64,000 nucleotides of DNA from Magnetococcales bacterium (lineage in GTDB: Bacteria > Pseudomonadota > Magnetococcia > Magnetococcales > UBA8363): assembly GCA_015228815.1 (NCBI GenBank), contig JADGCV010000006.1, positions 74,495-138,494 on the forward strand. The letters are read 5' to 3'. Both the position numbers and the translations under genes were made by a program. This document shows positions 25,786 through 38,363 of this stretch, one piece after another (the first letter of the stretch is position 1; every line of letters starts with the position of its first letter). The notes beneath the pieces are model-generated. The model was not told where the DNA came from. It ran no database searches and saw only the letters and a program-made list of their open reading frames with translations.

Positions 25786-25810
25786 AGAGTCCACAGGAAA
25801 AACAGGCATC

Positions 25811-26032
25811 ATGGACATGATCCAGGAACTTCAATACAAAGTAAGTCGTCTGTTCCCACTCCTTGCACAAGAAGCATTGGATTTCATTGGATACCTGGAA
25901 CATATCCATCAGCGTGACCAGGGGTCTGTCCTTTTGAAACATGCCCAACAGACATCCATGCGCAAGGTTTGGGATAACCCAATCGATGAGGTATGGAATG
26001 ACATGTACACCTGGATAAAAAATATAACCTAG
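25811..26032 (+). CDS. Small DUF2281-like putative antitoxin
   Basis: MDMIQELQYKVSRLFPLLAQEALDFIGYLEH...MRKVWDNPIDEVWND resembles DUF2281-type antitoxins that I recall upstream of PIN toxins. This stretch is visibly AT-richer than its flanks. Confidence 0.5.
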   Translation: MDMIQELQYKVSRLFPLLAQEALDFIGYLEHIHQRDQGSVLLKHAQQTSMRKVWDNPIDEVWNDMYTWIKNIT

Positions 26033-26084
26033 GATAATTAACCATAAAACATCCACTTGGTTACCGTCAGGGACCAAACTTTTC

Positions 26085-26558
26085 ATGAACCCCAAGGTCT
26101 ATCTGGAAACCAGCATCATCAGCTATCTGGCGGCCCGGCCCAGCCGGGACTTGGTGCTTGCCGCCCATCAGCAGATTACCGCCGAATGGTGGGACAAGAG
26201 CCGCCGCCACTTCGACCTGTACACGTCCGAACTGATATTCCGGGAGGCAAACGCGGGCGACCCCGGAGCCGCCAAACGTCGGTTGGAATTTTTGGCGGGC
26301 CTGCCCAGTCTCAATGTCAATGAAGAGGTCATGACTCTGGCCATCGCACTACTGGATGCTCGGGCTGTTCCTCGACAGGCGGTTGATGACGCCTATCACA
26401 TCGCCCTGGCTGCCGTGCATAGGATGGATTACCTGCTGACTTGGAATTGCAAGCACATCGCCAATGCCACCATGTGGAGCCGGATTGATGGCATCTGTCG
26501 TTCCCAAGGCCATGAACCTCCAGCCATCGCCACCCCCGAACAACTTCAGGAGGAATGA
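26085..26558 (+). CDS. PIN-domain protein (VapC-like toxin family)
   Basis: The 157-aa protein shows VYLETSIISYL...DDAYHIALAAVHRMDYLLTWNCKHI, the PIN layout. The first acidic position is Glu and the last is Asn rather than Asp. Confidence 0.75.
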   Translation: MNPKVYLETSIISYLAARPSRDLVLAAHQQITAEWWDKSRRHFDLYTSELIFREANAGDPGAAKRRLEFLAGLPSLNVNEEVMTLAIALLDARAVPRQAVDDAYHIALAAVHRMDYLLTWNCKHIANATMWSRIDGICRSQGHEPPAIATPEQLQEE

Positions 26559-26755
26559 CCATGTGGGAAGACCCCATAGTCGCGGAAGTCCGCAAGGTCC
26601 GAGAAGAACATGCCGCCCGCTTCAATTATAACCCAGTGGCCATCTACCACGACATCAAGCGCATGGAACAGGAGTCGGGCCGGGAATACGTGGATTTCTC
26701 GCGAAAGCCGGACCAGAAAGCAGCAAGACCAGCTGATGGCTGTCAGGTAAGATAA
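26555..26755 (+). CDS. Small protein translationally coupled to the PIN gene (possible cognate antitoxin)
   Basis: An ATGA overlap links it to the PIN stop. (MT)MWEDPIVAEVRKVREEHAARFNYNPVAIYHDIKRMEQESGREYV is a type of small ORF I recall downstream of this PIN subfamily. Confidence 0.5.
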   Translation: MTMWEDPIVAEVRKVREEHAARFNYNPVAIYHDIKRMEQESGREYVDFSRKPDQKAARPADGCQVR

Positions 26756-26775
26756 CGCAACGATCATCTTTTTGA

Positions 26776-27142
26776 TTGACACACATCCTCTTTTTTTCCT
26801 ATCCTGCCCCCATGGACACGACTCGCAAACACACCCCGTCGCTGCGACTGCATGGCTCCCTCCCGAGTGCCAACCCCGACCCGTGGGCGAAGGAAGGTTT
26901 GCGACAGGACTGAGTTGATCCGCCAAATCTTGAAACCGAAGGCCATGGGTTCCCCCGAATCCATGGCTTTTTTAATTCCCCCTTCCCGACAAAAAAAGCG
27001 GAGGAAAATAATGAAAAAAAACCATTTTTTACTGCGACTGACGGGCGGCCGCCTTTGGATGGCGTTGTGGCGCCCAGGCGGCCGGTTCGCTCCCACCATT
27101 GTCCTTCAATCGCATACGACAAGGAGTCGATTTCGATGTTGA
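26776..27142 (+). promoter_or_regulatory. Candidate leuA leader: sigma70-like promoter, two small ORFs, intrinsic terminator and repeated CATGG cores
   Basis: TTGACA (26776-81), an 18-nt spacer, then TATCCT (26800-05). An ATG at 26812 sits 7 nt after the -10 element and opens a possible leaderless 33-codon ORF. A terminator hairpin lies at 26942-67 with a T6 run. A second 43-codon uORF (27011-27142) has GGAGG 6 nt upstream and overlaps the leuA ATG. Confidence 0.3.
26939..26973 (+). terminator. Rho-independent terminator-like hairpin
   Basis: GCCATGG (26942-48), a 12-nt loop, CCATGGC (26961-67), then TTTTTT (26968-73). An AA tract precedes the stem. Confidence 0.55.
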
Positions 27143-28833
27143 CCCAGGCCCGCCGGAAATACCGCCCCGCCCCGCCCATTCCCATGACGGTCCGCCATTG
27201 GCCCGACCGCACCCTTTCCCAACCACCCCAATGGTGCAGCATCGACCTTCGCGATGGCAACCAGGCCCTGGCGATTCCGATGAACCCGGAACGGAAAAGA
27301 CGTCTGTTCCAGATGCTCATCCGTTTGGGATTTCGTGAAATAGAAGCCGGCTTTCCCGCCGCCTCTCAGGATGAATTCGCCTTCATGCGCACCCTGGTCG
27401 ATACCACCCCCGAGGAGGTCGCCATCCAGGTATTGACCTCGGCACGCGAGGAACACATACGCCGCACTTTCGCAGCCCTCGAAGGGATGCCCCAGGCAAC
27501 CGTCCATTTTTATCTTTCCACCTCCCCGGTCCAACGGCGGGTGGTGTTCGGAGTGGATGAAAAAACCCTGATCGCACGGGCCGTCACCGCCGCAACCTTG
27601 ATCCGGACCCTTGCCGAACGGCAACCGGAGACCCGATGGCACTTTCAATTTTCGCCCGAGAGTTTCTCGGCGACGGAGCCTGAATTTGCCCTTGCCATCT
27701 GCGAAGCGGTGGTTGCAGTCTGGGAACCCGACCGCGAACACCGGATTATTCTCAATCTTCCCGCCACGGTCGAAGTCGCGGCACCCAACCGGTTTGCCGA
27801 CCAGATCGAATGGTTCGACCGCCACCTTGCCCGCCGTGAGGCAGTCATCCTTTCCATTCATCCCCACAACGACCGCGGGTGTGCTGTCGCGGCGGCGGAG
27901 TTGGCCCTTTTGGCCGGGGCGGAACGTGTCGAGGGGGCCTTGTTCGGCAATGGGGAACGGACGGGAAACCTTGATCTTGTCACGTTGGCGCTCAATCTTT
28001 ACAGCCAGGGAATCGATCCCGGACTTGATCTTTCGGACATGGGGCAAATAATCGAATGTTACCGTGAATGCACCGGAATGGAGGTCGCCCCGCGCCACCC
28101 CTATGCCGGAGCCATGGTCCATACCGCCTTTTCGGGATCCCATCAGGATGCCATCCGCAAGGGATTGGCCGCCGCGGTCCCGGACGGCCCCTGGGAGGTC
28201 CCCTACATTCCCATCGATCCCCGTGACATGGGCTTTGATTTGTCGGGCATCATCCGGGTCAACAGCCAATCGGGAAAGGGGGGAGCGGCCTATCTTCTGG
28301 CCCGGGAACGCGGCATCACCCTTCCCCGCTGGCTCGAACCGGAATTCGCCCGTGAAGTGCAACGGGCGACGGAACAAAGCGGTGGTGAATTGTCCGCACC
28401 CCAACTCATCGACCTGTTCGACCGGACCATGCGGCATCCACCGCAACACATCCGCCTGGAACACAGCCATCTGTACCAGGAGCCGCAACGGGAGTTGCCC
28501 CAGGATTCAGGATACCGGATCGAATTGAAGGTGACGATCGATGGCCAATCCAGAACCCTTTTCGGCCAGGGCAACGGTCCCATCGATGCCGCCTGCCACG
28601 CCTTGCCGGGTCCGTGGCACATCCGACAGTATGAGGAACACGCCCTGGGACAAGGGAGCGATGCCCAGGCCATCGCCTTCATCCAGCTCGAACAACATCC
28701 CTGCCGCCCCCGGTCCGGCGTGGGAATTCATGAGGACATCATCACCGCCTCCCTGCACGCCTTGATGGCGGCCATCAACCTCTGCCTTGCAGAATGGTCC
28801 CCCGCCGACCGTCGAACCTTGTTTTTGGATTGA
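27136..28833 (+). CDS. leuA: 2-isopropylmalate synthase, long (actinobacterial/LeuA type 2) form
   Basis: AAGGAG lies 9 nt upstream of the [53 protein letters not shown] and a C-terminal LeuA dimer/regulatory domain are present. The ORF-track start at 27055 is probably too long. Confidence 0.9.
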   Translation: MLTQARRKYRPAPPIPMTVRHWPDRTLSQPPQWCSIDLRDGNQALAIPMNPERKRRLFQMLIRLGFREIEAGFPAASQDEFAFMRTLVDTTPEEVAIQVLTSAREEHIRRTFAALEGMPQATVHFYLSTSPVQRRVVFGVDEKTLIARAVTAATLIRTLAERQPETRWHFQFSPESFSATEPEFALAICEAVVAVWEPDREHRIILNLPATVEVAAPNRFADQIEWFDRHLARREAVILSIHPHNDRGCAVAAAELALLAGAERVEGALFGNGERTGNLDLVTLALNLYSQGIDPGLDLSDMGQIIECYRECTGMEVAPRHPYAGAMVHTAFSGSHQDAIRKGLAAAVPDGPWEVPYIPIDPRDMGFDLSGIIRVNSQSGKGGAAYLLARERGITLPRWLEPEFAREVQRATEQSGGELSAPQLIDLFDRTMRHPPQHIRLEHSHLYQEPQRELPQDSGYRIELKVTIDGQSRTLFGQGNGPIDAACHALPGPWHIRQYEEHALGQGSDAQAIAFIQLEQHPCRPRSGVGIHEDIITASLHALMAAINLCLAEWSPADRRTLFLD

Positions 28834-28902
28834 CCTCCGGAAATTCCAGTCTCCCCCCCGTCCGGGATCGGCCCGCCGATCCCGGACCCTTTCACAATCG
28901 TT
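27871..28902 (+). repeat. Direct repeat copy 1: leuA 3' ~960 bp plus ~70 bp downstream, duplicated at 34331-34925
   Basis: Hand alignment gives 27871-28046 = 34331-34506 and 28491-28902 = 34514-34925, at roughly 96-97% identity. Similarity stops abruptly at both outer ends. Confidence 0.9.
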
Positions 28903-28995
28903 TGAACAACCTCAACAAACTTGCGGCTGTGCGACATCCGATGTATGATTATTTCTACAAAATAACTCATATAAAACATACCCATTAAGGAAACC

Positions 28996-31900
28996 ATGCA
29001 ACAACTGCCCCCCGCCATTCCCATTGTCTTGGTTGATATTGAAAATTTCAGTCAATGGAACCAGGACGAGCAGGCCAAAATCATTGACCGTTTACAGACA
29101 GGACTCAGGGAAAGCCTGAAACCCTTGATCGGGTACGCCAACCCCGACACGATCATCAACCGCCACGGCGCTGGGGACGGTTATTATTTGTTTCTTCAAA
29201 GTTTTTCAACCCCGGTTGCCATGCGGGTAGCCTTGAATCTGGAAAACTTTCTGCTCCAAGACAACCAGAAGCATCCCCGCTATCCCCTGCGCCTGCGGGT
29301 GGTATTGACTTTGGGAAGTGTCGGACTCAAGGGGGACCAATATCTGGGAGAGGCGTTGACCGAGGCGGCACGGCTCATCGATCATGATTGGATCAGGAAG
29401 ATATTGAAAACCCGCAAGGAAAGTCCCGTTGTCCTGGCAACCTCGAACTTTTTTTGGGACGATTGGCATCCTCATCCCCAGCGCACCGCTCCAGAGTTGA
29501 CCTTTCCAGAAGAGCGCCCCTGGATCGCGGTTGAATTATCCGTCAAACATGGCCGCCTCATCGGTGCCCATGTGCAGGTCGAGCCAACAACCTTTTTTCC
29601 AATCGCCCAACAACAAACCATTCAGGAAAAACCGGTAGAAACCTCTGCCTGCGATCTGACCCCCTGGCTCAAATCACTGCATGACGAAACCCGGTATCTC
29701 ACAATCAGCGGCATCGGCTCCGGCGGAGGCCGGGGCAAAACAGCCAATCTTTACCCGATTGAAGATCTTTATACGGTCATCAAGTGCCATGACATAGTCA
29801 TCAACGCACGGCAATCAACGATGGAACGGATGGGGGGGCAAGAGACGCGCGGTAAAAAGGTCAACCTGGCGGAACTGTTGCCACGACACAAAAGATTGTT
29901 GATCGAGGGACAGCCGGGATCGGGGAAGACCACGTTTTTAAAACTGACCGCCGCCATGCTCGCCAGGGATATTCTGGGAAATGAACCCTGCCCGGGCGGA
30001 GGGACCTGGCGCAAACGCCATCTGGGCCTGGATGACCGCTTGGAATCGCCGATTCCGTTGTTTTTGCGGCTTTCGGAACTGGCCAGGCTATTGTCCGACA
30101 GGCCCCCCCCAAAAATGGCGGACGACCGTTTTCGGCTGTTGGATCTTCTCCAGACCACCCGGGACGCGGGCCGGGAGGCAACATGGCGGGACTATTGGCA
30201 AACCTTGCTGGAAGAAGGCCGGGTCCTGCTGCTGTTGGATGGACTGGATGAAGTCGCGGATGATCGCTTGCGTGAGCGGGTGTTCGCCATTTTTCAAAGT
30301 GCGGTAACCCACTGGAAAAAAAATACCATCATTGTCAGCAGCCGTCCCATTGAAGCGGAGCGGTTGGAACAGATGGGATTTCAACGGACGGTGATCGAAC
30401 CTTTTGGCATCGCTCAAACACAGGAGTTTATCGACCATTGGTCGGCAGCCCTGTATGGCCAAGCCATCGGCGTCCCTGGCGGTGCGGCGGAACAACATGC
30501 CGAAATCCTGGTTCAGGCCATTCTCGCCAAACATTCCATCCGCAAGTTGGCGGCCAATCCGGTCATGTTGACCTGTTTGTGCGTGGTTCATTGGAACGAA
30601 GGCCAATTGCCCGAAGGAAGGGCGCGGGTCTACAGGGCGGTGATCCGCTGGTTGTTGGGCGCCAAGGATGAGGTGCGCGCCGACTTCAACAGGAATGAAC
30701 AAGAACGCTATACCACCCGGTTCGCCCATGAATCTTTTGCCGCCATTGCCCTGGCCATGATGGGCGGTCGTCAAGGGAGGAAAAAAGCCATTTTCGACCT
30801 TGAGGAGGCCGCCAAGGCTGTAATGCCCCTTCATGAACGTCATTTTCCGGACGTCACTACGGACCGGCTTGTTTCAATACGAAAATGGATCCAATTCGAG
30901 TGCATTTACAGCGGCATTCTGGAAGAGATGGGGCGGAACCGCCTCCGATTTTGGCATTTGACCTTTCAAGAGTATCTGGCGGCGCAAAACTTGGCGTGGA
31001 TGAGCGATGACAAGGAGAGCGGATGGTGGCCTCTTGTCGAAGGCCGTTTGGAAGACCCCCATTGGCGGGAAACGATCGATCTGTTTCCCGGCGTTCTTTT
31101 CGATGAGGGTGGTAGCCAGCGCCCGGATGAATTATTGACACGGGTAGTAGCCAAATGGCGTACCTCCACTTGGTCCGATCCATTTCTGAAACTGGTCCCG
31201 GGCAAAAGACACAACAACGGCTTGGCGGAGGCCGCTCACAAGGCTGGCCTCCTGGTGCGAATCCTGGAGCCGATGAAGGTATATCAATACCAACCCAGCC
31301 CCGAGATCCAGAAAGAATACCGGCAGGTGCGCAACCAAGCCCTGAACCTTTTCACCCTGGAAGGTGCGGCCAAGGTGCCGATCAAGGTACGCCTGGCAGC
31401 GGCGGAAGCGTTGGGCCAGGGGGGCGACCCGCGCCTGACCGAGGACAAGTGGCGAGAAAATCTTATCAAAGTGCCTGGAACCGACATTTGCCTGGGGAAA
31501 TACCCGGTGACAGTGCAGGAATACCAACGCTTTGTCGAAGATGGTGGCTACGACAACCCCGATTATTGGCAGGAGGATCACGCCTGGACCTTTCGGCAAG
31601 CGCATGACTGGAAGGAACCAGATCAATGGGCACAACAATTGGACCATGGCAATCGCCCCGTCGTGAGGGTCTCCTGGTATGAAGCCAGAGCTTATTGTCT
31701 TTGGCTGACCCGGCAAAAGTCGGACGTAACAAGGGATATCCGTTTTTTCCTCCCCAATGAAGATGATTGGGAGAGGGCGGCCACCCCCACCCATGGTGAT
31801 TACCCCTGGGGCACGGAAAACCCGACACCGGAATTGGCCAATTATAGCGACGGCAAGATCGGCGCCCCCACCCCGGTGGGACTCTACCCCGCAGGCAACA

Positions 31901-32154
31901 GTTCCCTGGGCCATTGCGACTTGGCCGGCAACGTCTGGGAGTGGTGCTCCACTCCTGGATCGAAGAAAGACGCTATCGAGGAAGATGCAGTGAAATACGG
32001 ACCACCGAAGGTAGTTCGGGGCGGGTCCTGGGGCTTCCCAGCTTCCGACCTCCAGGTCGGCGGCAGAGGCGGTCGCATCGACGGTCGTGCGGGCTACCGC
32101 GGCGCCGGTCTGGGCTTTCGCCTCGCCGCCCCCGCCAGCACGCTTGATCCTTGA
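28996..32154 (+). CDS. STAND/NLR-like protein: class III cyclase-like domain + NACHT NTPase + HEAT-like repeat + FGE-sulfatase (SUMF1/CLec) domain, 1052 aa
   Basis: AAGGA lies 6 nt upstream of the ATG.
- aa 8-130: LVDIENFSQW, GAGDGYYLF, LRLRVVLTLGSVGLKGDQYLGEALTEAARL (cyclase homology-like)
- aa 305-312: GQPGSGKT (Walker A)
- aa 410-419: VLLLLDGLDE (Walker B), with IVSSRP
- aa ~797-813: KVRLAAAEALGQGGDPR (HEAT-like)
- aa ~825-1047: RVSWYEARAYCLWL, GNVWEWC, RGGSW (FGE-sulfatase). Confidence 0.85.
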   Translation: MQQLPPAIPIVLVDIENFSQWNQDEQAKIIDRLQTGLRESLKPLIGYANPDTIINRHGAGDGYYLFLQSFSTPVAMRVALNLENFLLQDNQKHPRYPLRLRVVLTLGSVGLKGDQYLGEALTEAARLIDHDWIRKILKTRKESPVVLATSNFFWDDWHPHPQRTAPELTFPEERPWIAVELSVKHGRLIGAHVQVEPTTFFPIAQQQTIQEKPVETSACDLTPWLKSLHDETRYLTISGIGSGGGRGKTANLYPIEDLYTVIKCHDIVINARQSTMERMGGQETRGKKVNLAELLPRHKRLLIEGQPGSGKTTFLKLTAAMLARDILGNEPCPGGGTWRKRHLGLDDRLESPIPLFLRLSELARLLSDRPPPKMADDRFRLLDLLQTTRDAGREATWRDYWQTLLEEGRVLLLLDGLDEVADDRLRERVFAIFQSAVTHWKKNTIIVSSRPIEAERLEQMGFQRTVIEPFGIAQTQEFIDHWSAALYGQAIGVPGGAAEQHAEILVQAILAKHSIRKLAANPVMLTCLCVVHWNEGQLPEGRARVYRAVIRWLLGAKDEVRADFNRNEQERYTTRFAHESFAAIALAMMGGRQGRKKAIFDLEEAAKAVMPLHERHFPDVTTDRLVSIRKWIQFECIYSGILEEMGRNRLRFWHLTFQEYLAAQNLAWMSDDKESGWWPLVEGRLEDPHWRETIDLFPGVLFDEGGSQRPDELLTRVVAKWRTSTWSDPFLKLVPGKRHNNGLAEAAHKAGLLVRILEPMKVYQYQPSPEIQKEYRQVRNQALNLFTLEGAAKVPIKVRLAAAEALGQGGDPRLTEDKWRENLIKVPGTDICLGKYPVTVQEYQRFVEDGGYDNPDYWQEDHAWTFRQAHDWKEPDQWAQQLDHGNRPVVRVSWYEARAYCLWLTRQKSDVTRDIRFFLPNEDDWERAATPTHGDYPWGTENPTPELANYSDGKIGAPTPVGLYPAGNSSLGHCDLAGNVWEWCSTPGSKKDAIEEDAVKYGPPKVVRGGSWGFPASDLQVGGRGGRIDGRAGYRGAGLGFRLAAPASTLDP
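32017..32154 (+). repeat. VR-like 3' cassette of the NACHT gene (left arm of the inverted repeat), including a GC-only 12-mer and the stop
   Basis: The stretch from cgg ggc ggg tcc tgg to gcc gcc ccc gcc agc acg ctt gat cct tga aligns with the 3' end of the TIR gene (32587-32715, opposite strand). The final 48 nt differ at 2 positions. Confidence 0.85.
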
Positions 32155-32203
32155 TTTTTTGGGTTTTGGTCCTTGATGGGGTCCAGGGGGCGATGATGAC
32201 TTT

Positions 32204-32410
32204 GTCACTTTGAACCGCTTCCTTTCCGAAGCGGCCATCGTTCTTGGCAAATCCCCCCGGCAGTTGGGCTACCGGATCAAGAACGGCGCACTTTGAGCGC
32301 ACAAAAACAAGGGCTTCTGGGTCATCGTCAACACCGACCTGCCCCTTTTCGAAGTTTGGAAACACGATACCCTTTTGCCCGCCCCCGGATTTCGAATTCC
32401 AAAAAAGTAG
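32204..32410 (+). pseudogene. Remnant of a small excisionase/AlpA-type (HTH_17-like) DNA-binding gene with an in-frame TGA
   Basis: The frame reads (V)TLNRFLSEAAIVLGKSPRQLGYRIKNGAL*AHKNKGFWVIVNTDLPLFEVWKH...KK*. The stop at 32294-96 interrupts the expected helix-turn-helix plus wing. No convincing start or RBS is visible. Confidence 0.35.
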
Positions 32411-32586
32411 GCTGTCCCCGAACTCCAAAGTGACATTTTGTCAGTTTGTCACTGTCACATGGACATCATGACCGTTATTAGTGACAAAGATGGACCAATA
32501 ACGACCATTTTTGTCACTTTAAACGACAAGAATGGTCGTTCTATTGTCATTTCACGCAACCATTGGGCTGCGACCCATGGACCCCA

Positions 32587-32715
32587 TCAAGGATTAAGCG
32601 TGCTGGCGGGGGCGGCAAGGCGAAAGCCCAGACTGACGCCGCAGCCGCCCGCAGGAGCGTCGCCGCGGAAGCCGACCCGGAGGTAGGAAGCCGGGCGGAA
32701 CCAAGACCCGCCCCT
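32587..32715 (-). repeat. VR-like 3' cassette of the TIR gene (right arm of the inverted repeat)
   Basis: The stretch from agg ggc ggg tct tgg to gcc gcc ccc gcc agc acg ctt aat cct tga aligns with 43 codons of the NACHT gene cassette. See the findings for the mismatch pattern. Confidence 0.85.
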
Positions 32716-34059
32716 GATAGAGCGAACATCTGCATTGCCACGCTTGACCACGGGGTCCTTGACCATCGTTCCATCGGCCCGTTTTTTATACACCTGATTA
32801 TCCCAGACATCCCGGCACCATTCCCAAACATTTCCTGCCAAGTCCAAATGGCCGAAGGGACCTGCGCCCGCCGGATACCGTCCGACCAAGGCTGGTTTTC
32901 CATTGCCGTAGTCCAAACCAAAACAGGCCAATTCCTTCGTGGGGTCGTCGTCTCCCCAGGGATGGCGGCATCCCTCCGGTCCCCGAGCGGCATACTCCCA
33001 TTGCGCTTCCGAAGGGAGAAAGAATTCCTTTCCGGACTTTTTGGAAAGCCACTCACAAAAAGCGACGGCATCTTGCCAAGCCACACCGACAACCGGCTGC
33101 TGCGGATCGGAATATTTTTGATCGCGCCAATAGAACGGTTCCCTATATTTCGTCTCCAGGATGAAAATCCCATAGTGCTGGTTCGTCACCGGCGTTTCCG
33201 CCAGCCCAAAAGGTGAAAGTTCCACCCGATGTTCCGGTTTTTCAAAATCCCTTCCCTGGTTGTCTCCCATCGTAAAGATTCCCCCCGGCACCGGAAGCAA
33301 TCGCAGCCCCGGCAGGGGTTCAAGAATTTTTTGTTTTGTGGTTTTTACCTTTCTGGTTTTAGGAGTCCCTGCTTTGCTGTCGATGACATAAATTCTCTCT
33401 GGGACGCCTGCGGCTACAGAATTTTTTTCCGAAACGCCCGACATCGCTTCTTTGCCTAAGGTCTTCCCGGCTTCGGTTCCCGGCGCCAAAGGTAAGGAAC
33501 GCCTTTCGGCGATCAATTCGCGGATCCGGTTCGACAAATTGAGAAAAACCTCTTGTTTCCCAATTTCATTCATGTGTCCCAGTGTTCGTGTTGGTGAAGC
33601 AAACCCTTGAATCTTGGTCAATATTTTTGTTTTATCATTGACTGCGACCTGAGAAGGGCTCACAAAGACAGGAAGAAGGGTCAGCTTTTTTTTCTCGAAA
33701 GCTCTCAATAGCCACGGCAATTCCGTCTCAGCGACAAATTTGGAAGCAAGAAAGGGCTGAGAGATAAAAAGCACCGCCACGGAAGCTTCCTCCATGGCCG
33801 CAACAATTTCTTTTTCCCAAACCGCTCCCTCTGTGATCTTCCCGTCATACCAACACTGAACCCCCTCTTCCCCCTTCAACGTCTCAATATACGGCCAAAA
33901 AAGTTCCAAACAGCTGACGTCTTTATGACTGTAACTGATGAAGACCGCAGGTTTTGACACGCTTCTGGCACCCAAAGACATCATCCTTTCAATAACCAGT
34001 CGTAGAATCCTGTCGGCTCTAACATCAATACCAAGAAGGTTCAAAAGGCCAACGATCAT
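32587..34059 (-). CDS. TIR domain + FGE-sulfatase (SUMF1/CLec) domain protein, 490 aa
   Basis: aa ~38-130 read AVFISYSHKD...CWYDGKITEGAVWEKEI...ASVAVLFISQPFLASKFVAETEL (TIR_2-like). aa ~262-485 read PGGIFTMGDNQG, VVGVAWQDAVAFCEWL, GNVWEWC, RGGSWF (FGE-sulfatase). GGAG lies 3 nt upstream of the ATG at 34059; alternative ATGs are at 33984/33981. Confidence 0.85.
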   Translation of the reverse strand: MIVGLLNLLGIDVRADRILRLVIERMMSLGARSVSKPAVFISYSHKDVSCLELFWPYIETLKGEEGVQCWYDGKITEGAVWEKEIVAAMEEASVAVLFISQPFLASKFVAETELPWLLRAFEKKKLTLLPVFVSPSQVAVNDKTKILTKIQGFASPTRTLGHMNEIGKQEVFLNLSNRIRELIAERRSLPLAPGTEAGKTLGKEAMSGVSEKNSVAAGVPERIYVIDSKAGTPKTRKVKTTKQKILEPLPGLRLLPVPGGIFTMGDNQGRDFEKPEHRVELSPFGLAETPVTNQHYGIFILETKYREPFYWRDQKYSDPQQPVVGVAWQDAVAFCEWLSKKSGKEFFLPSEAQWEYAARGPEGCRHPWGDDDPTKELACFGLDYGNGKPALVGRYPAGAGPFGHLDLAGNVWEWCRDVWDNQVYKKRADGTMVKDPVVKRGNADVRSIRGGSWFRPASYLRVGFRGDAPAGGCGVSLGFRLAAPASTLNP

Positions 34060-34261
34060 CCACTCCGTGACTTAATGGTGTTACGAGTCCTTTAATTTCA
34101 AGCCCGCCATTATTACCATGATTTGGATTCGAATTCCACCTCGTTGGCCCAAGCGGCGCCGTCTCCCGACTGGACGTCAATCAGGCATGATCATTTCACC
34201 ACCATCCCCCTCAGCCTGAGAAACAGTTTGTCGATATATCTGTCCCGGTCATCCGTCATGA

Positions 34262-34924
<663 letters not shown>

Positions 34925-34925
<1 letters not shown>

Positions 34926-35566
34926 CATGCTTCCCGGATCAAACGCCCCCCCTCGATCCGGACCTTGCATTCGATCAATCCCGGTTTGCCCTCGGGGTCG
35001 GGACCCAGGCAGCGGCCCGACGCCAGATCGAAGATCCAGTTGTGCATCCGACATTCGACACGATCGCCATGATCGACGCCTTTGCACAAGGTCGTCTTGG
35101 AATGCGGGCAGCGGCTCAGATAGACCTTCGCCGTTTCCGGACCGGTACGGAATACGATCAGATCGCCGTCCGGCTTGTGGACACACGCCATTTTGTTCAG
35201 AGGAAAAGAGGCCATCGTCCCAAGGACGTTATCTCCGACCACCTTCTCTTCACCCGGTGCCTCGGGAAGAAGATCCAGATCCCGCAATACTTCAATGGCA
35301 TCAAGCAGTTTGTTCAGCCCCGAGGCGGGGAAGGCCATCATCACCGCATCAAGGATTTCCTCCTTGCTGGCCCCCGCCTTCAACGCCTTGGGGGCGTATT
35401 GCCGCAACCCCCGTTCCGTCCCCACCGCCACCTTGGTCACGATCTGGATCAAGAACCTGGTTTTATCATCCAACGCCTTGACACTGTGTTTGTAAAAACC
35501 AAGCAAATTCGTCGCCGCTTCGGGACGGACAGCCCCCAGATACCTTAATGCCTTCGACACGATCAT
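34925..35566 (-). CDS. Fusion protein: carboxymuconolactone decarboxylase (AhpD-like) domain + Rieske [2Fe-2S] domain
   Basis: The N-terminal half shows CMD-like helices (DDKTRFLIQIVTKVAVG...EEILDAVMMA). The C-terminal half shows CPHSKTTL...ECRMHNWIFDL, which fits the Rieske CxH...CxxH pattern. Confidence 0.75.
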
Positions 35567-35678
35567 CTCCTTTCAGAATGCAATCAACCGATTTGAAACG
35601 TTTGCAGAAACATGGAAAGCAGCCTAAGCCACGAATACGACATGAAAATGGCCCGTCCAGGATTCAGACCCCGGATGT

Positions 35679-38363
35679 TCACGTCGTACCAACCGAGTCA
35701 TCGCCCGACGTGACAGAACGCTCTTCCTCCCGACCAGCGCCATTCCCTTCCCGGGATGGAACCGTCGCGGAGGACGGTCGATCATCTTCCCCATCCCCCT
35801 CCCTGCGTTCCTCGATTCCTTCGCGAGAACCATTGCCGGTCACCGGTTTACCCCGACCGCGCCCCCGCCCCCGTCCGCCACGACGCGAACGTTTGCGCTT
35901 GGCCGCGGCATCGGTCCGGGCCGGATTGGCCATGTCCGATTCATGGGCATGGGGTCCCAGATCCCGATCCTGAAGGTCTTCTTCCTCGTCCTCTTCCGGC
36001 AATGGACTCGAAGCCCTCTCCGTAGTGCCGGGAGTCACCTCGTGCAAGGTATAAAGCCCTGGAAAACGCATGGCCAACGCCTCGACATGGCGCATGTCCT
36101 GAATCTGTTTTTCTTGTGGCCGCTCCCTGGATTGCGGTCCGGAAACGACCTCCTCTTCCCGTTGCCCCGTGGCATCATCCTCCACTTCAGAGCGACTCGA
36201 CGCATCCGGAAAACGGGACGGGGCAGAACCCAAACCCGCATCCTGCACGAGGGAACCGGTCTCGCTGCCCCCCTGATTCTTCTTGCGCCGCCGTTTGCGC
36301 CGGCGCTTTTTCTTCGCCCCCTCTCCGGTGTCGCTGGCGACCGCGGTCCCAGAATCACGGGCAACGACAACAGGATCGGCCTTCTTCTCCACATCCAGGG
36401 CATCCTCCACGACCGGCGGCGATTTCACCTTCTCATCCCGCGTTCGCTCCCGCTCCTTTTTCGATTTTTCGACATGGCTGGTATTGAATTCGGGCGGTTG
36501 GAGACGAAGATCGGCATGAATGTTGATGCTCACCTGGTTGGACTCCTCCAACCGCACCAACGGCGACCGCTTGTGGTTGAACAGGTAGTTCATCACCTCG
36601 GACGAAACATGGTAATTGTAAACCTGATATTTCCCCTGGGCCACCTCCTCCTCGATGCAACGGTAGGTATACACCGCCGCCGACTCCACCGAACGGATCG
36701 TCCCCAACCCCTTGCACCGGGGACATTCCATCCGATTGGTCTCGCTGAAGGTCGGTCGCAGACGCTGCCGCGATAATTCCAACAACCCAAACTGGGAAAT
36801 GCGACCAATCTGAACCTTGGCCCGGTCGCTTTTGAACGCCTCCTTGACCCGTTTTTCCACTTCCTGGATGTGCTTGCGATCCTCCATGTCGATGAAGTCG
36901 ATGACCACCAACCCCCCCAGGTCCCTCAGGCGCAATTGCCGCGCAATTTCATCGACAGCCTGAAGATTGGTCTTGAAGGCCGTCGATTCCACATCCTTTT
37001 CCCGTGTGGAACGGCCCGAATTGATGTCGATGGTGACCAACGCCTCGGTGGGATCGATGACCAGATAACTCCCCGCCTTCAACTGGACCACCCGATCGTG
37101 CATGGTCTCGATCTGACTTTCCACCTGGAAGCGGGCAAACAGGGGAATGCTCTCGCGATAGGGTTGCACCACCTTGACATAGCGGGGCATCAATAAACGC
37201 ATGAAATCCTTCCCCAGACGATACCCCTCCTGCCCCTCGATGAGGATTTCCTCCATGTCGGTGGTATACAGATCGCGGATGGTCCGGATGATCAGGTCTC
37301 CCTCCTGGTGAATGAGACAGGGGGCCTTGCGGGTCCGGGTCCCTTCGAGGATCATCTTCCACAGTCGCATCAGATAACTGATGTCGCGGCTGAACTCCCG
37401 TTTGTTGCGCTGTACGCCGGCGGTACGGATGATCAGGCTCATTTCGGGAGAAATGGGCAGGGTGTTGAGGATTCCCTTGAGGTTCTTGCGTTCGGCAGGG
37501 TCGGTGATCTTGCGCGAGATCCCCCCTCCGCCAGGATTCTCGGGAAGAAGGACCGTGTAGCGACCCGCCAGCGAAAGATTGGTCGTCAGGGTAGCCCCCT
37601 TGTTGCCGCGGGACTCCTTCACAACCTGGACCAGGACCGTCTGGTTGCGATGCAATATCTTCTGAATCGGTGGCGGGCGGCGCCGATGCTGCCGGCGAAT
37701 TTCCTCAAGCGGCGGACGGTCCTCCTCTTCGTCCCGCTCCGATTCGGATTCCAGTTCGGAAACATCCCCCTCCGGGTCGTCCTGACCGGTGGCATGTCCA
37801 ACATCGGCAGCCGCGTCCTCGTCGCCGGAATCGTCTTCCTCCTCCAGCGCTTCCTCCGACTCCGCTTCCAATCCGTCATCCTGTTCCCGACCCGAGGCGG
37901 AGGCCTCGGAAAAATCCATGACATCAAGGGAGGATTCGGCGGAAGATTCGGCGCCGTCCCCGGGAGAGGAAGGGTCCACCGCTTCCGTTTCCCGGCGGGC
38001 CTCATCGACGGAAAAATCGATCGATTCGTCGCCATCCGCCGCATCCGCCGCCACGGCGGCCTGGAGCGCCGATGTGGCGGACGCTTCCCGCGCCGCGGCG
38101 CCGGCGCCGGTCAATCCTCCAGGGGTGAAATATTTCGGATGGATGTCGTTGACGGAAAGAAAACCTTGACGTCCACCATGAAATTCGATGAATGCTGCCT
38201 GAAGCGATGGTTCCACCCGGGAAACCCGCCCCAGATAGATGTTGCCCTTGATCTGCTCCTTGTTGGCGGTTTCGATATCGAGATCCACGAGTCGGTTGTC
38301 CTGAACAATGGCAACCCGGATTTCTTCAGGATGGGTGGCATCCACCAGCATGCGTCTGGTCAT
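35679..38363 (-). CDS. rne: Ribonuclease E
   Basis: MLVDATHPEEIRVAIVQDNRLVDLDIE...GNIYLGRVSRVEPSLQAAFIEF is the S1 domain. The RNase E/G catalytic core follows (VIDFIDM...). The C-terminal half is Arg/Glu-rich and low-complexity. A large acidic insertion follows the S1 region. Confidence 0.9.
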   Translation of the reverse strand: MTRRMLVDATHPEEIRVAIVQDNRLVDLDIETANKEQIKGNIYLGRVSRVEPSLQAAFIEFHGGRQGFLSVNDIHPKYFTPGGLTGAGAAAREASATSALQAAVAADAADGDESIDFSVDEARRETEAVDPSSPGDGAESSAESSLDVMDFSEASASGREQDDGLEAESEEALEEEDDSGDEDAAADVGHATGQDDPEGDVSELESESERDEEEDRPPLEEIRRQHRRRPPPIQKILHRNQTVLVQVVKESRGNKGATLTTNLSLAGRYTVLLPENPGGGGISRKITDPAERKNLKGILNTLPISPEMSLIIRTAGVQRNKREFSRDISYLMRLWKMILEGTRTRKAPCLIHQEGDLIIRTIRDLYTTDMEEILIEGQEGYRLGKDFMRLLMPRYVKVVQPYRESIPLFARFQVESQIETMHDRVVQLKAGSYLVIDPTEALVTIDINSGRSTREKDVESTAFKTNLQAVDEIARQLRLRDLGGLVVIDFIDMEDRKHIQEVEKRVKEAFKSDRAKVQIGRISQFGLLELSRQRLRPTFSETNRMECPRCKGLGTIRSVESAAVYTYRCIEEEVAQGKYQVYNYHVSSEVMNYLFNHKRSPLVRLEESNQVSINIHADLRLQPPEFNTSHVEKSKKERERTRDEKVKSPPVVEDALDVEKKADPVVVARDSGTAVASDTGEGAKKKRRRKRRRKKNQGGSETGSLVQDAGLGSAPSRFPDASSRSEVEDDATGQREEEVVSGPQSRERPQEKQIQDMRHVEALAMRFPGLYTLHEVTPGTTERASSPLPEEDEEEDLQDRDLGPHAHESDMANPARTDAAAKRKRSRRGGRGRGRGRGKPVTGNGSREGIEERREGDGEDDRPSSATVPSREGNGAGREEERSVTSGDDSVGTT

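What the first reader, a model, noticed from the sequence alone, without database searches (positions are those of the whole stretch)
28996..34059. Convergent cyclase-like-NACHT-FGE and TIR-FGE genes: candidate uncharacterised NLR-type immune module
Two genes fill an inserted 5.4 kb island.

Gene A (28996-32154, +) combines four parts:
- an N-terminal domain with the class III nucleotidyl-cyclase pattern (LVDIENFSQW, GDGYYLF, LRLRVVL..GDQYLGEALTEAARL)
- a NACHT P-loop NTPase (GQPGSGKT, LLLLDGLDE)
- a HEAT-like repeat
- a C-terminal FGE-sulfatase/CLec domain

Gene B (32587-34059, -) is a TIR domain fused to another FGE-sulfatase/CLec domain.

NACHT/STAND ATPases and TIR domains are established anti-phage components. 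FGE-type domains have been proposed as ligand sensors in conflict systems. I do not know of an experimentally described system with this pairing, or with a cyclase-like head on a NACHT protein.

The context also fits a defence island: recently inserted DNA, a neighbouring PIN toxin module, and an AT-rich TIR half. Whether A and B cooperate or act independently is inference. Cooperation could run, for example, through a cyclic-nucleotide signal, hetero-oligomerisation, or a shared ligand class recognised by their related C-terminal cassettes.
Basis: partly seen in the sequence, partly recalled or inferred. Interest (0 to 1): 0.88.

Follow-up and report, generated by a model that had tools for sequence, protein, structure and literature searches.

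The report
Orphaned DGR-target immune receptor gene pair
Two convergent genes in a Magnetococcales genome encode an NLR-like protein and a TIR protein, each ending in a variable lectin-fold sensor; they are the two targets of a diversity-generating retroelement whose reverse transcriptase and template have been deleted here, so this is one more example of an already predicted kind of bacterial "antigen-receptor" locus, not a new system.

Summary
Gene A (28996-32154, +) has a class III cyclase-like head, a NACHT module, a helical spacer and an FGE/C-type-lectin (CLec) domain. Gene B (32587-34059, -) has a TIR domain and an FGE/CLec domain. The 5.4 kb island is bounded by 415-bp direct repeats of the leuA 3' end.

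The last ~120 nt of both genes are variable repeats (VRs) of a diversity-generating retroelement (DGR). In a related Magnetococcales MAG, the same cyclase-NACHT-FGE gene (57% identical over its full length) faces a TIR-NACHT-FGE gene. An HTH gene, an Avd-like gene, a template repeat (TR) and a reverse transcriptase (RT) lie between them. In the window that cassette is deleted. What remains is a 42-codon HTH pseudogene fragment with an in-frame stop, plus the post-RT spacer.

A-versus-B differences cluster at columns that are adenines in the relatives' TRs (14/28 versus 8/98 elsewhere). That is the DGR signature.

Published comparative-genomics papers already describe NACHT-FGS receptors, their DGR diversification, cNMP-cyclase heads on STAND proteins, and degenerate DGR loci. 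None has been tested experimentally. The pairing reflects a shared diversifier, and I found no evidence for a cyclase-to-TIR relay.

Verdict: a real, ordinary member of a known, computationally defined kind. Interest is moderate to low.

The parts
28488..28902 (+). Left direct repeat: the 3' end of the intact leuA gene (27055-28833) plus its terminator hairpin. It marks the left edge of the island.
   Evidence: 97% identical to 34511-34810. The alignment runs on to about 28902/34925 and then breaks. Pfam finds HMGL-like, IPMS_D2 and LeuA_dimer in this gene.
28996..32154 (+). Gene A (MBF0108312.1): cyclase-like head, NACHT, helical spacer and FGE/CLec domain, 1052 aa.
28996..29622 (+). Class III nucleotidyl-cyclase-like head (residues 1-209). 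D14, G60, D61, G62, G107 and R126 are invariant across the family.
29869..30453 (+). NACHT nucleotide-binding module: Walker A GQPGSGKT at residues 305-312 (K311) and Walker B LLLLDGLDE at 411-419. Helical/winged-helix domains follow, to about residue 720.
31219..31461 (+). Short alpha-helical spacer (residues 742-822).
   Evidence: Faint HEAT_PBS hit, E 0.16. Helices at 742-822 in the model.
31462..32151 (+). FGE-sulfatase / C-type-lectin-fold sensor domain of A.
   Evidence: Pfam 7e-36. PDB hits include EgtB, ToxD and the DGR variable protein TvpA (2y3c, 4e-9).
32018..32142 (+). VR_A: the variable repeat of a DGR. It is followed by an IMH-like GC-rich end, and it carries a 9-nt insertion relative to VR_B and to the relatives' TRs.
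32222..32347 (+). Pseudogene relic: codons about 5-46 of the DGR-associated HTH gene, with an in-frame stop.
   Evidence: tblastn gives 71% identity to the L002 221-aa HTH_17 protein. The translation shows the stop. 76% nt identity to L007 1824-1949.
32427..32586 (+). Spacer homologous to the segment just downstream of the RT gene in intact loci. The deletion of the rest of the HTH gene, the Avd-like gene, the TR and the RT (about 2.2 kb) lies between 32352 and 32426.
   Evidence: Window 32427-32731 aligns with L007 4181-4507; there is a 24-nt match at 96% to L002 15848-15871. No RT, Avd or TR match anywhere in the 64 kb window.
32587..34059 (-). Gene B (MBF0108313.1): TIR plus FGE/CLec, 490 aa. 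Homologues suggest the true start is M26 or M27.
33655..33945 (-). TIR domain (residues 39-135). The putative catalytic E113 is conserved in at least 90% of TIR-FGE homologues.
32614..33297 (-). FGE/CLec sensor domain of B, 42% identical to that of A.
32599..32714 (-). VR_B: the variable repeat, an inverted copy of VR_A.
   Evidence: Inverted repeats I1 and I2.
34331..34925 (+). Right direct repeat: an internally deleted leuA 3' fragment (pseudogene) plus the terminator. It marks the right edge of the island.
   Evidence: 34331-34532 matches 27871-28072 at 90%, and 34511-34810 matches 28488-28787 at 97%. LeuA_dimer hit at 1e-20.

Best explanation
The island is a degenerate diversity-generating-retroelement (DGR) 'antigen-receptor' locus in a Magnetococcales genome.

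A and B are two parallel sensor-effector proteins. Their C-terminal FGE-fold (C-type-lectin) domains end in homologous variable repeats. Both repeats were once rewritten from a single template repeat by an RT encoded between the two convergent genes. In this genome the cassette (most of the HTH gene, an Avd-like gene, the TR and the RT) has been deleted. Only the first ~46 codons of the HTH gene (with a stop) and the post-RT spacer are left.

Shown:
- the domain architecture;
- homology to intact DGR loci;
- the deletion relics;
- the adenine-position pattern of A-versus-B differences.

Inferred mechanism:
- A works like an NLR. Ligand binding at the variable CLec surface releases the NACHT module to oligomerise. 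This brings the class III cyclase heads into the dimers they need for catalysis, and a cyclic nucleotide is made. Its receptor is not encoded in the island.
- B is a simpler receptor. Ligand-driven clustering of its CLec domain assembles TIR domains into an NAD+-cleaving form.
- The two act independently. They are neighbours because they shared one diversifier.
- With the cis DGR gone, their specificities are probably frozen, at least for A, whose VR carries a 9-nt insertion. Servicing in trans by a second locus in the same MAG is not excluded.
For: Architecture.

The closest full-length homologue (P0002, 57% identity over 1026 aa) lies in L002/L003. There it is followed by a 221-aa HTH_17 ORF, a 125-aa bAvd-like ORF, a TR, an RVT_1 RT and a convergent TIR-NACHT-FGE gene.

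L007 has the same cassette between a Metallophos-NACHT-FGE gene (P0231, 67% identical to A's chassis) and a TIR-NACHT-FGE gene. Its TR/VR differences are almost purely at adenines: 15/25 and 13/25 adenine columns against 2/91 and 1/91 other columns.

L004 has a cyclase-NACHT-FGE gene next to an RT fragment.

The 3' ends of A and B align with these VRs and TRs and carry the VR-type 3' flank. Relics of the cassette sit in the 432-nt intergenic spacer.

A-versus-B mismatches: 14/28 at TR-adenine columns against 8/98 elsewhere, Fisher p = 3e-6 (similar).

The window holds no TR, RT or Avd.

Catalytic motifs are intact: D14, D61 and R126 are invariant in 36 family members; Walker A and B are present; TIR E113 is at least 90% conserved.

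The FGE catalytic cysteine pair is absent. That region is the VR itself (read directly from the sequence; FGE C336/C341 from my own knowledge).

The NACHT-FGE chassis carries interchangeable heads typical of conflict effectors: Metallophos, TIR, SIR2_2, DUF4062, Mrr, trypsin and ParA. The cyclase-like head itself occurs on NB-ARC-TPR, NACHT, ABC-ATPase, PNP and VMAP-like proteins.

Literature: PMC10907252 sections 5, 8 and 12 (two-target STAND-CLec DGR loci, degenerate loci); 10.1101/2022.07.19.500537 supplementary discussion (FGS-type NACHT proteins likely DGR-diversified; cNMP cyclases as effectors); 10.64898/2026.08.12.744502 section 5 ('immune clade 1' cyclases fused to NACHT/AP-ATPase and VMAP).
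Against: - There is no experimental evidence for any member of this family, so defence, cNMP synthesis and NADase activity are all inferred.
- PADLOC recognises no system.
- The cyclase head lacks the canonical Asn (T122) and the Lys/Asp base-specifying pair (H57/Q115 by the alignments), so its activity and substrate are uncertain.
- No cNMP receptor is encoded in this island or in the intact relatives' loci.
- Convergent pairs without a local RT or TR recur in other genomes (L008/9, L010, L011) and still show adenine-column differences. So lack of a cis DGR need not mean that diversification has stopped.
- A probable second locus in the same MAG shares the window-type VR backbone.
Confidence: 0.75

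Rival explanations
1. The pair is not frozen. A and B are remote DGR targets, still diversified in trans by an RT and TR encoded elsewhere in the same genome. The likely source is the paralogous cyclase-NACHT-FGE / TIR-FGE locus on the 119,678-bp contig.
For: - P0228 (MBF0108653.1), P0113 (MBF0108658.1) and P0118 (MBF0108659.1) have accession numbers about 340 away from A and B (MBF0108312/313). They are therefore probably from the same MAG, with four unseen CDS between P0228 and P0113.
- P0113's frameshifted C-terminus reads 'FRPPGR...CGLPRRQSGLSPRRPRQ'. The same reading appears in an alternative frame of VR_A, so the non-adenine backbone is shared.
- Pairs without a DGR in L008, L010 and L011 keep 82-89% VR identity, with differences at adenine columns.
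- Trans diversification of degenerate loci is documented in Thiohalocapsa (PMC10907252 section 8).
Against: - VR_A has a 9-nt insertion that VR_B and every TR seen lack. A full homing event would erase it.
- The window pair has the lowest VR-VR identity of the pairs (78% over 138 nt) and 8% mismatches at non-adenine columns.
- The second locus has a different 3' flank (..CCAGCCTTGG..) from the window VRs (..CCAGCACGCTTGATCC..).
- I could not fetch the second contig, so an RT and TR there are unproven.
Confidence: 0.3
2. A and B form a two-component relay or hetero-complex. A senses the ligand and makes a cyclic nucleotide (or recruits B directly), and this activates the NACHT-less TIR protein B, in the manner of Pycsar/Pucsar.
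For: - The cyclase-head gene is convergently paired with a TIR-bearing FGE gene in at least four loci from different MAGs: the window, L002/3, L008/9 and L011.
- In the window and in L008, B lacks its own NTPase.
- cNMP-activated TIR effectors exist (10.64898/2026.08.12.744502).
Against: - B has no cNMP-binding domain, and its 120-aa linker has no Pfam hit even at E<=1.
- In L002/3 and L011 the TIR partner has its own NACHT. In L010 the partner is a trypsin-NACHT-FGE protein with Trypco1. In L007 the TIR-NACHT-FGE protein pairs with a Metallophos head instead.
- TIR-FGE proteins of 410-490 aa are widespread without any obligatory cyclase partner.
- Sharing one TR is a sufficient explanation for the pairing.
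Confidence: 0.12
3. The proteins are not immune receptors. They are environmental or regulatory sensors: DGR-tuned signal transduction with a cNMP output for physiology.
For: - Class III cyclases are mostly physiological signalling enzymes.
- DGR targets in cyanobacteria have been proposed to tune regulatory pathways (PMC7517822, title and abstract seen).
- No known defence system is recognised by PADLOC.
Against: - On the same chassis the head swaps with TIR, SIR2, Mrr nuclease, trypsin and Schlafen-like domains. These are conflict effectors, not regulators.
- The cyclase head family also sits on NB-ARC-TPR and VMAP/MoxR systems.
- The locus occupies a different genomic site in every genome, often beside toxin-antitoxin genes.
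- The 2026 phylogeny places STAND-fused cyclases in a fast-evolving 'immune clade 1' (10.64898/2026.08.12.744502 section 5).
Confidence: 0.12
4. The pair is a decaying remnant with no current function.
For: - The DGR cassette is deleted and the HTH gene is a pseudogene.
- There is an insertion in VR_A.
- A paralogous TIR-FGE (P0113) in what is probably the same MAG is frameshifted in its VR.
- B lacks the NACHT found in the L002/L011 partners.
Against: - Both ORFs are full length relative to homologues, with no stops or frameshifts.
- All catalytic and nucleotide-binding motifs are intact.
- The TIR-FGE short form is a recurrent architecture, not a one-off deletion.
Confidence: 0.1

Closest known systems
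DGR-diversified STAND-NTPase/CLec target pairs (RT 'clade 5D' loci of Dore et al. 2024, PMC10907252; FGS domains in NTP-dependent conflict systems, Kaur et al. 2020, PMC7159879)
   Same: - Two target genes, each with a single C-terminal FGE/CLec domain ending in a VR.
- A central NACHT.
- N-terminal effector heads such as TIR.
- Degenerate loci that lack RT or TR are also described.
- Relatives of this locus have the full HTH/Avd/TR/RT cassette.
   Different: - Here the cis cassette is deleted.
- The host is a unicellular magnetotactic coccus, not a multicellular bacterium.
- Target 1 carries a cyclase-like head that Pfam does not recognise.
- Target 2 has no NTPase.
Bacterial NACHT (bNACHT) proteins of the 'antigen-receptor, FGS type' (Kibby et al., bioRxiv 10.1101/2022.07.19.500537)
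   Same: - Tripartite layout: N-terminal effector, NACHT, C-terminal FGS sensor.
- cNMP cyclases are listed among the N-terminal enzymatic effectors.
- FGS types are predicted to be DGR-diversified.
   Different: The bNACHT proteins shown there to protect against phage are other types (short C-terminal extension, repeats). As far as I found, no FGS-type or cyclase-head member has been tested.
'Immune clade 1' cNMP cyclases fused to STAND NTPases and VMAP proteins (Chakravarti et al. 2026 preprint, 10.64898/2026.08.12.744502; VMAP ternary systems, PMC7159879)
   Same: - Class III cyclase fold at the N-terminus of NACHT, AP-ATPase and VMAP proteins.
- The family found here has exactly these partners: NACHT-FGE, NB-ARC-TPR, and a VMAP-like protein followed by MoxR.
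   Different: I could not test membership of that clade because no tree or accessions were compared. The base-specifying residues here are His/Gln and the canonical Asn is Thr.
Pycsar / Pucsar cyclic-nucleotide defence
   Same: A class III-type cyclase and a TIR protein are encoded side by side.
   Different: - Pycsar/Pucsar effectors carry a cNMP-binding domain, and the cyclase is a stand-alone protein.
- B has none, and the cyclase here is the head of an NLR-like protein.
DGR variable proteins with CLec/FGE fold (Treponema TvpA 2y3c; Bordetella phage Mtd)
   Same: - The VR sits at the C-terminal end of the fold, in the ligand-binding face.
- A's FGE domain hits TvpA at 4e-9.
- The RGGSW...GFR frame has variable positions between these motifs.
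   Different: TvpA and Mtd are surface or tail-fibre binding proteins with no signalling domains. Here the fold is the sensor of cytoplasmic effector proteins.
Avs / eukaryotic NLRs (NLRC4, NLRP3, NOD2)
   Same: - NACHT plus helical domains superpose on NLRC4, NLRP3 and NOD2.
- The logic is the same: effector, NTPase, sensor.
   Different: - The sensor is a single hypervariable lectin-fold domain, not TPR or LRR repeats.
- The head is a cyclase, not a nuclease, CARD or PYD.

Membership tests
Diversity-generating retroelement (complete locus) | DGR-type reverse transcriptase gene | tested here: not met
   tblastn with the L002 RT finds nothing in the 64 kb window. The RT is present in L002, L003, L007 and L004.
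Diversity-generating retroelement (complete locus) | Template repeat (a third copy of the VR, differing at adenines) | tested here: not met
   blastn of both 3' ends against the window finds only the two VRs.
Diversity-generating retroelement (complete locus) | Accessory gene (Avd/HTH) | tested here: not met
   Only a 42-codon HTH fragment with an in-frame stop remains at 32222-32347. There is no Avd.
DGR target gene (VR-bearing CLec protein) | VR at the C-terminal end of a CLec/FGE fold, homologous to known VR/TR, with substitutions confined to TR-adenine positions | tested here: met
   VR_A and VR_B align with the L002 and L007 TRs and VRs. A-versus-B differences are 14/28 at adenine columns against 8/98 elsewhere, p = 3e-6. 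This is indirect, because the cognate TR is lost.
Bacterial NACHT / NLR-related STAND | NACHT module with Walker A and Walker B, followed by helical/winged-helix domains | tested here: met
   Pfam NACHT 3.9e-10 and NPHP3_N. GQPGSGKT at 305 and LLLLDGLDE at 411. Foldseek matches NLRC4, NLRP3 and NOD2 at E about 1e-11 to 1e-9.
Bacterial NACHT / NLR-related STAND | Anti-phage phenotype | not testable with these tools
PADLOC gives no system-level hit.
Class III nucleotidyl cyclase | Cyclase homology-domain fold | tested here: met
   AF2 pLDDT 96.4. All 50 best listed Foldseek PDB hits are class III AC/GC. Profile against PDB gives 3e-10.
Class III nucleotidyl cyclase | Two metal-binding aspartates and the phosphate/transition-state arginine | tested here: met
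   D14, D61 and R126 are invariant in 36 sequences and align with the corresponding residues of 3mr7 and Ma1120.
Class III nucleotidyl cyclase | Canonical Asn and base-specifying Lys/Asp (AC) or Glu/Cys (GC) pair; Pfam PF00211 above threshold | tested here: not met
   By ungapped alignment to 3mr7 the positions are T122, H57 and Q115. A has no PF00211 hit, and P0001 has only a faint one (E 0.06). Ma1120, an active cyclase, also lacks Asn at the canonical position in the alignment, so this does not prove inactivity.
TIR NADase effectors | TIR fold above the curated threshold, with a conserved catalytic Glu | tested here: met
   TIR_2 scores 41 bits against a cut-off of 28. PADLOC ThsB and SAVED-TIR hits. 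E113 is at least 90% conserved among 19 TIR-FGE proteins. phmmer against PDB found nothing.
Pycsar/Pucsar-type cNMP signalling system | Effector with a cyclic-nucleotide-binding domain next to the cyclase | tested here: not met
   B has only TIR and FGE. Its linker 135-255 has no Pfam hit at E<=1.
Formylglycine-generating enzyme / EgtB (enzymatic FGE family) | Catalytic Cys pair (FGE) or DinB-domain iron site (EgtB) | tested here: not met
   NCBIfam scores (77 and 84 bits) are far below the EgtB/SenA/PvdO cut-offs of 360-500 bits, and only the C-terminal fold matches. There is no Cys pair in 'RGGSWGFPASDLQVGG...' (sequence; FGE residues from my own knowledge).
VMAP/MoxR-vWA ternary conflict system | MoxR ATPase and vWA component adjacent | tested here: not met
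   Neither is in the island. Both are present next to the cyclase-head homologue P0001 in L001.

The most novel reading that the evidence does not exclude
The convergent cyclase-NACHT-CLec / TIR-CLec pair persists without a cis DGR in several Magnetococcales genomes. The most novel reading is that it persists because the two proteins are functionally coupled. The NLR-like protein would sense a ligand and emit a cyclic nucleotide (or co-assemble on the same ligand) to fire the NTPase-less TIR protein. Both receptors would meanwhile be re-specified in trans by a DGR at a paralogous locus in the same genome. That would amount to a distributed, adaptive-like receptor network in a unicellular bacterium.
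Probability: 0.12. Interest if true: 0.7.

Novelty: new member of a known kind. Interest (0 to 1): 0.35.

Why it matters
If these proteins are immune receptors, they belong to the only bacterial receptor class whose ligand-binding surface is rewritten by targeted hypermutation. No member of that class has been tested.

This locus is a natural 'frozen' version. It has two intact receptors with different outputs (cyclic nucleotide, NAD+ cleavage), no RT and no other genes, in 5.4 kb. That makes it a compact construct for asking three questions:
- What does an FGE-fold sensor bind?
- Does NACHT oligomerisation switch on a class III cyclase head?
- Do such receptors stay useful after losing their diversifier?

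The work also defines a cyclase-like head family of about 100 cluster representatives that Pfam does not annotate. NCBI labels these proteins only as 'SUMF1/EgtB/PvdO family nonheme iron enzyme', which is misleading.

Tried and rejected
- Looked for a TR, RT or Avd in the window by blastn and tblastn: none.
- Scanned GTDB genomes for the conserved VR/TR 3' end. Only three Magnetococcales loci matched, and the window's own genome is not among the representatives.
- The same kind of scan in JGI metagenomes gave 0 hits.
- A protein-based metagenome scan returned only NACHT-FGE relatives without the cyclase head. 4 of 25 had an RT nearby.
- Tried to fetch the source MAG's other contig through the look-up of encoding contigs with A, B, P0107, P0228 and P0113. 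None is on record, so I could not test for a trans-acting DGR.
- PADLOC: no system-level match.
- Rfam: nothing in 25500-36000.
- tRNA genes: none in the window, so this is not a tRNA-targeted island.
- The promoter/terminator scan did not exceed the shuffled expectation.
- phmmer of the TIR region against PDB: nothing.
- Considered that B is a one-off internal deletion of a TIR-NACHT-FGE gene. Rejected as the sole explanation, because short TIR-FGE proteins are common.
- Considered a GGDEF rather than a class III assignment for the head. Rejected: only one GGDEF hit appeared, at E 0.04, against many class III hits.
- Considered an enzymatic FGE/EgtB role. Rejected (no Cys pair).

Full report
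**1. What is in the sequence**

Two convergent ORFs sit at the stated coordinates: A at 28996-32154 (+), 1052 aa, and B at 32587-34059 (-), 490 aa. They are NCBI proteins MBF0108312.1 and MBF0108313.1 of a Magnetococcales MAG. Both are annotated only as 'SUMF1/EgtB/PvdO family nonheme iron enzyme'.

Pfam gives NACHT/NPHP3_N and a C-terminal FGE-sulfatase domain for A. It gives TIR_2 plus FGE-sulfatase for B. PADLOC and NCBIfam agree on the domains but recognise no known defence system.

The island is real. The 3' end of leuA with its terminator (28488-28902) is repeated at 34511-34925 at about 97-98% identity. A further leuA piece is repeated at 90% identity (27871-28072 matches 34331-34532). 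The 5.4 kb between the repeats is therefore bracketed by an intact leuA and an internally deleted leuA fragment. GC content drops to 0.46-0.51 over the TIR half. The neighbouring 'PIN' ORF is only a sub-threshold hit.

**2. The cyclase-like head**

Residues 1-209 of A have no Pfam match. An exhaustive HMMER search found 106 cluster representatives with this domain. In 36 of them, D14, G60, D61, G62, G107 and R126 are invariant.

The single sequence hits the class III cyclase 3mr7 at 7e-4. The family profile hits 3mr7 at 3e-10, Ma1120 at 2e-6 and mammalian adenylyl/guanylyl cyclases at about 3e-3. An AlphaFold2 model (pLDDT 96.4) matches only class III cyclases; all 50 best listed Foldseek hits are of this class (best E 3e-9).

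The two metal-binding aspartates and the arginine are kept. The canonical Asn is Thr, and the base-specifying positions are His/Gln (alignment). The substrate cannot be predicted and activity is unproven.

The head is a mobile module. It also sits on NB-ARC-TPR, other NACHT proteins, an ABC-type ATPase and a PNP-family protein. It is also found on a VMAP-like protein that is followed by MoxR and an FGE protein.

**3. The NLR-like body**

A full-length model of A (pLDDT 83.6) shows these parts in order:
- the head;
- a small linker domain;
- the NACHT nucleotide-binding domain, with Walker A at 305-312 and Walker B at 411-419;
- helical domains;
- the FGE fold.

Foldseek places the body with NLRC4, NLRP3 and NOD2.

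The NACHT-FGE chassis is a large family with interchangeable heads: Metallophos (the most common), TIR, SIR2_2, DUF4062, ParA-like, Mrr, trypsin and the cyclase-like head. The closest chassis to A (67% identity) carries a Metallophos head (P0231).

**4. The key finding: both genes are DGR targets and the DGR has been deleted**

The 3' ends of A and B are inverted repeats: 82 nt at 87% identity and 138 nt at 78%.

A's closest full-length homologue is P0002 (57% identity over its whole length). It lies in L002/L003, two Magnetococcales MAGs. There it is followed by a 221-aa HTH_17 ORF, a 125-aa bAvd-like ORF, a template repeat, an RVT_1 reverse transcriptase and a convergent TIR-NACHT-FGE gene. 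L007 has the same cassette. L004 has an RT fragment next to a cyclase-NACHT-FGE gene.

In L007 the TR differs from VR1 and VR2 at 15/25 and 13/25 adenine columns, but at only 2/91 and 1/91 other columns. This is a textbook DGR.

The window's two 3' ends align with these VRs and TRs and carry the VR-type 3' flank. A-versus-B differences fall on 14 of 28 TR-adenine columns but on only 8 of 98 other columns (p = 3e-6; similar).

The window contains no TR, RT or Avd. The 432-nt spacer between A and B keeps two relics:
- 32222-32347 encodes codons about 5-46 of the HTH protein (71% aa identity), interrupted by a stop codon.
- 32427-32586 matches the segment just downstream of the RT in intact loci.

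The intervening ~2.2 kb (rest of the HTH gene, Avd, TR, RT) is replaced by about 75 nt.

**5. Gene B**

B matches the L002 TIR-NACHT-FGE partner only at the TIR domain (52%) and the FGE domain (60%). The ~715 central residues, including NACHT, are absent.

Short TIR-FGE proteins of 410-490 aa are common in Magnetococcales, Acidobacteriota and other groups. One is the convergent partner of a cyclase-NACHT-FGE gene in L008. The architecture is therefore recurrent and not an accident of this locus.

The putative catalytic E113 is at least 90% conserved. Homologues suggest the real start is M26 or M27. B has no cNMP-binding domain, and its linker has no detectable domain.

**6. Other loci**

Convergent pairs with a cyclase-head gene occur in these forms:
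- with a cis DGR: L002/3;
- without a DGR and without relics: L008/9, with a TIR-FGE partner and a 211-nt spacer;
- with a trypsin-NACHT-FGE partner plus Trypco1: L010;
- with a TIR-NACHT-FGE partner but no RT or TR within 9 kb: L011.

In every pair, VR1-versus-VR2 differences concentrate on adenine columns, while the non-adenine backbone is specific to each pair. These are therefore remote or former DGR targets, as described for degenerate loci in Thiohalocapsa (PMC10907252).

The locus sits at a different chromosomal site in each genome, often beside toxin-antitoxin genes.

**7. Is the window pair still diversified?**

This could not be settled. Evidence against continued diversification:
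- VR_A has a 9-nt insertion absent from VR_B and from all TRs seen.
- The pair has the lowest VR identity of all pairs examined (78% over 138 nt, against 82-89% for the L008, L010 and L011 pairs).

Evidence for it:
- A paralogous locus (P0228/P0113/P0118 = MBF0108653/658/659) is almost certainly in the same MAG, with four unseen genes between its two targets.
- P0113's frameshifted VR shows the same non-adenine backbone as the window's VRs.

That contig could not be fetched.

**8. Mechanism (inferred)**

A works as an NLR-like receptor. The hypervariable CLec face binds a ligand and the NACHT module oligomerises. The heads are thereby brought into the dimers that class III cyclases need (established knowledge of the family), and a cyclic nucleotide is made. 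No cognate cNMP receptor is encoded in this locus or in the intact relatives' loci, so the downstream step is unknown.

B would be activated by ligand-driven clustering of its TIR domains and would cleave NAD+.

Two observations argue for independent action. The partner gene in relatives carries its own NTPase or a different effector. The cyclase head and the TIR-FGE protein each also occur without the other. A and B are neighbours because they shared one template.

**9. Comparison with what is known, and novelty**

All of the following are already in the comparative-genomics literature:
- NACHT proteins with FGS 'antigen-receptor type' sensors predicted to be DGR-diversified, and cNMP cyclases as N-terminal effectors (10.1101/2022.07.19.500537);
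- FGS domains and cNMP-cyclase-VMAP proteins in NTP-dependent conflict systems (PMC7159879);
- two-target STAND-CLec DGR loci and degenerate or trans-serviced loci (PMC10907252);
- FGE-type sensors in a 2026 STAND census (PMC13581612);
- a cyclase 'immune clade 1' fused to NACHT and AP-ATPase (10.64898/2026.08.12.744502).

I found no experimental work on any member.

This locus is therefore a new member of a known, computationally defined kind. Three features are modestly notable: the clean deletion of the DGR core, a head family invisible to Pfam, and a unicellular host.

I score interest at 0.35.

Noticed in passing
window 27871-28902 and 34331-34925: The island is bracketed by an intact leuA and an internally deleted second copy of the leuA 3' end. 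That copy lacks the equivalent of 28073-28487. Its two pieces are 90% and 97% identical to the intact gene. The unequal identities suggest the fragment arrived with the island, or was partly gene-converted. There is no integrase, transposase or tRNA nearby.
   Followed up: partly
not in window; proteins P0228, P0113, P0118 (MBF0108653.1, MBF0108658.1, MBF0108659.1): A second cyclase-NACHT-FGE / TIR-FGE locus lies on a 119,678-bp contig. Accession proximity suggests it belongs to the same MAG. Four unseen CDS sit between the two targets and could be an intact DGR cassette. P0113's VR is frameshifted.
   Followed up: partly
L001 3628-8307: In a related organism, the genes directly downstream of the same E2/E3 (lipoamide dehydrogenase) pair are a cyclase-head VMAP-like protein (58% identical head), a MoxR ATPase and a protein of more than 732 aa ending in an FGE domain. 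The region downstream of lpdA therefore looks like a hotspot for such conflict loci. The window has a PIN-like pair, leuA and this island there.
   Followed up: partly
L007 (JADGCQ010000010.1), protein P0231: The NACHT-FGE chassis most similar to gene A (67% identity) carries a calcineurin-like phosphoesterase (Metallophos) head instead of the cyclase head. This indicates recent head swapping between a nucleotide-making and a possibly nucleotide-degrading domain.
   Followed up: no
L004, L008, L009, L091 contig ends: Several MAG contigs end within about 150-640 nt of a cyclase-NACHT-FGE or partner gene. This would be expected if VR/TR or paralogue repeats break assemblies, and it means DGR components may be under-observed in MAGs. 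GCA_002753735.1 carries at least two paralogous cyclase-NACHT-FGE genes (P0229, P0232).
   Followed up: no
window 33982-34059 (first 26 codons of gene B): The closest homologues of B start about 3-13 residues before the 'FISYSH' motif. The annotated 490-aa start is therefore probably too far upstream, and M26 or M27 is the more likely start.
   Followed up: partly
window 25769-26755: Three small overlapping or adjacent ORFs (87 aa, a 157-aa PIN-like ORF, 66 aa) lie between lpdA and leuA. The PIN hit is below Pfam's threshold (19.6 bits against a cut-off of 23.6) and the partners have no family hit. A toxin-antitoxin module is plausible but not shown.
   Followed up: partly
L011 1-1849: About 7 kb upstream of the cyclase-NACHT-FGE gene of Magnetococcus sp. 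MYC-9 is a large protein with weak Anti-Pycsar Apyc1 / metallo-beta-lactamase hits and a faint cNMP_binding hit. This is probably coincidental, but it is the only cNMP-related neighbour I saw.
   Followed up: no
window 32045-32062 (within VR_A): The 9-nt insertion in VR_A (GGCGGCAGA) resembles the next 9 nt (GGCGGTCGC, 6/9 identical). It may be a local slippage duplication that arose after the last homing event.
   Followed up: no
whole family: These loci are abundant in Magnetococcales, which are unicellular magnetotactic cocci (my own knowledge). The published association of this DGR/CLec-STAND class is with multicellular bacteria (PMC10907252).
   Followed up: no
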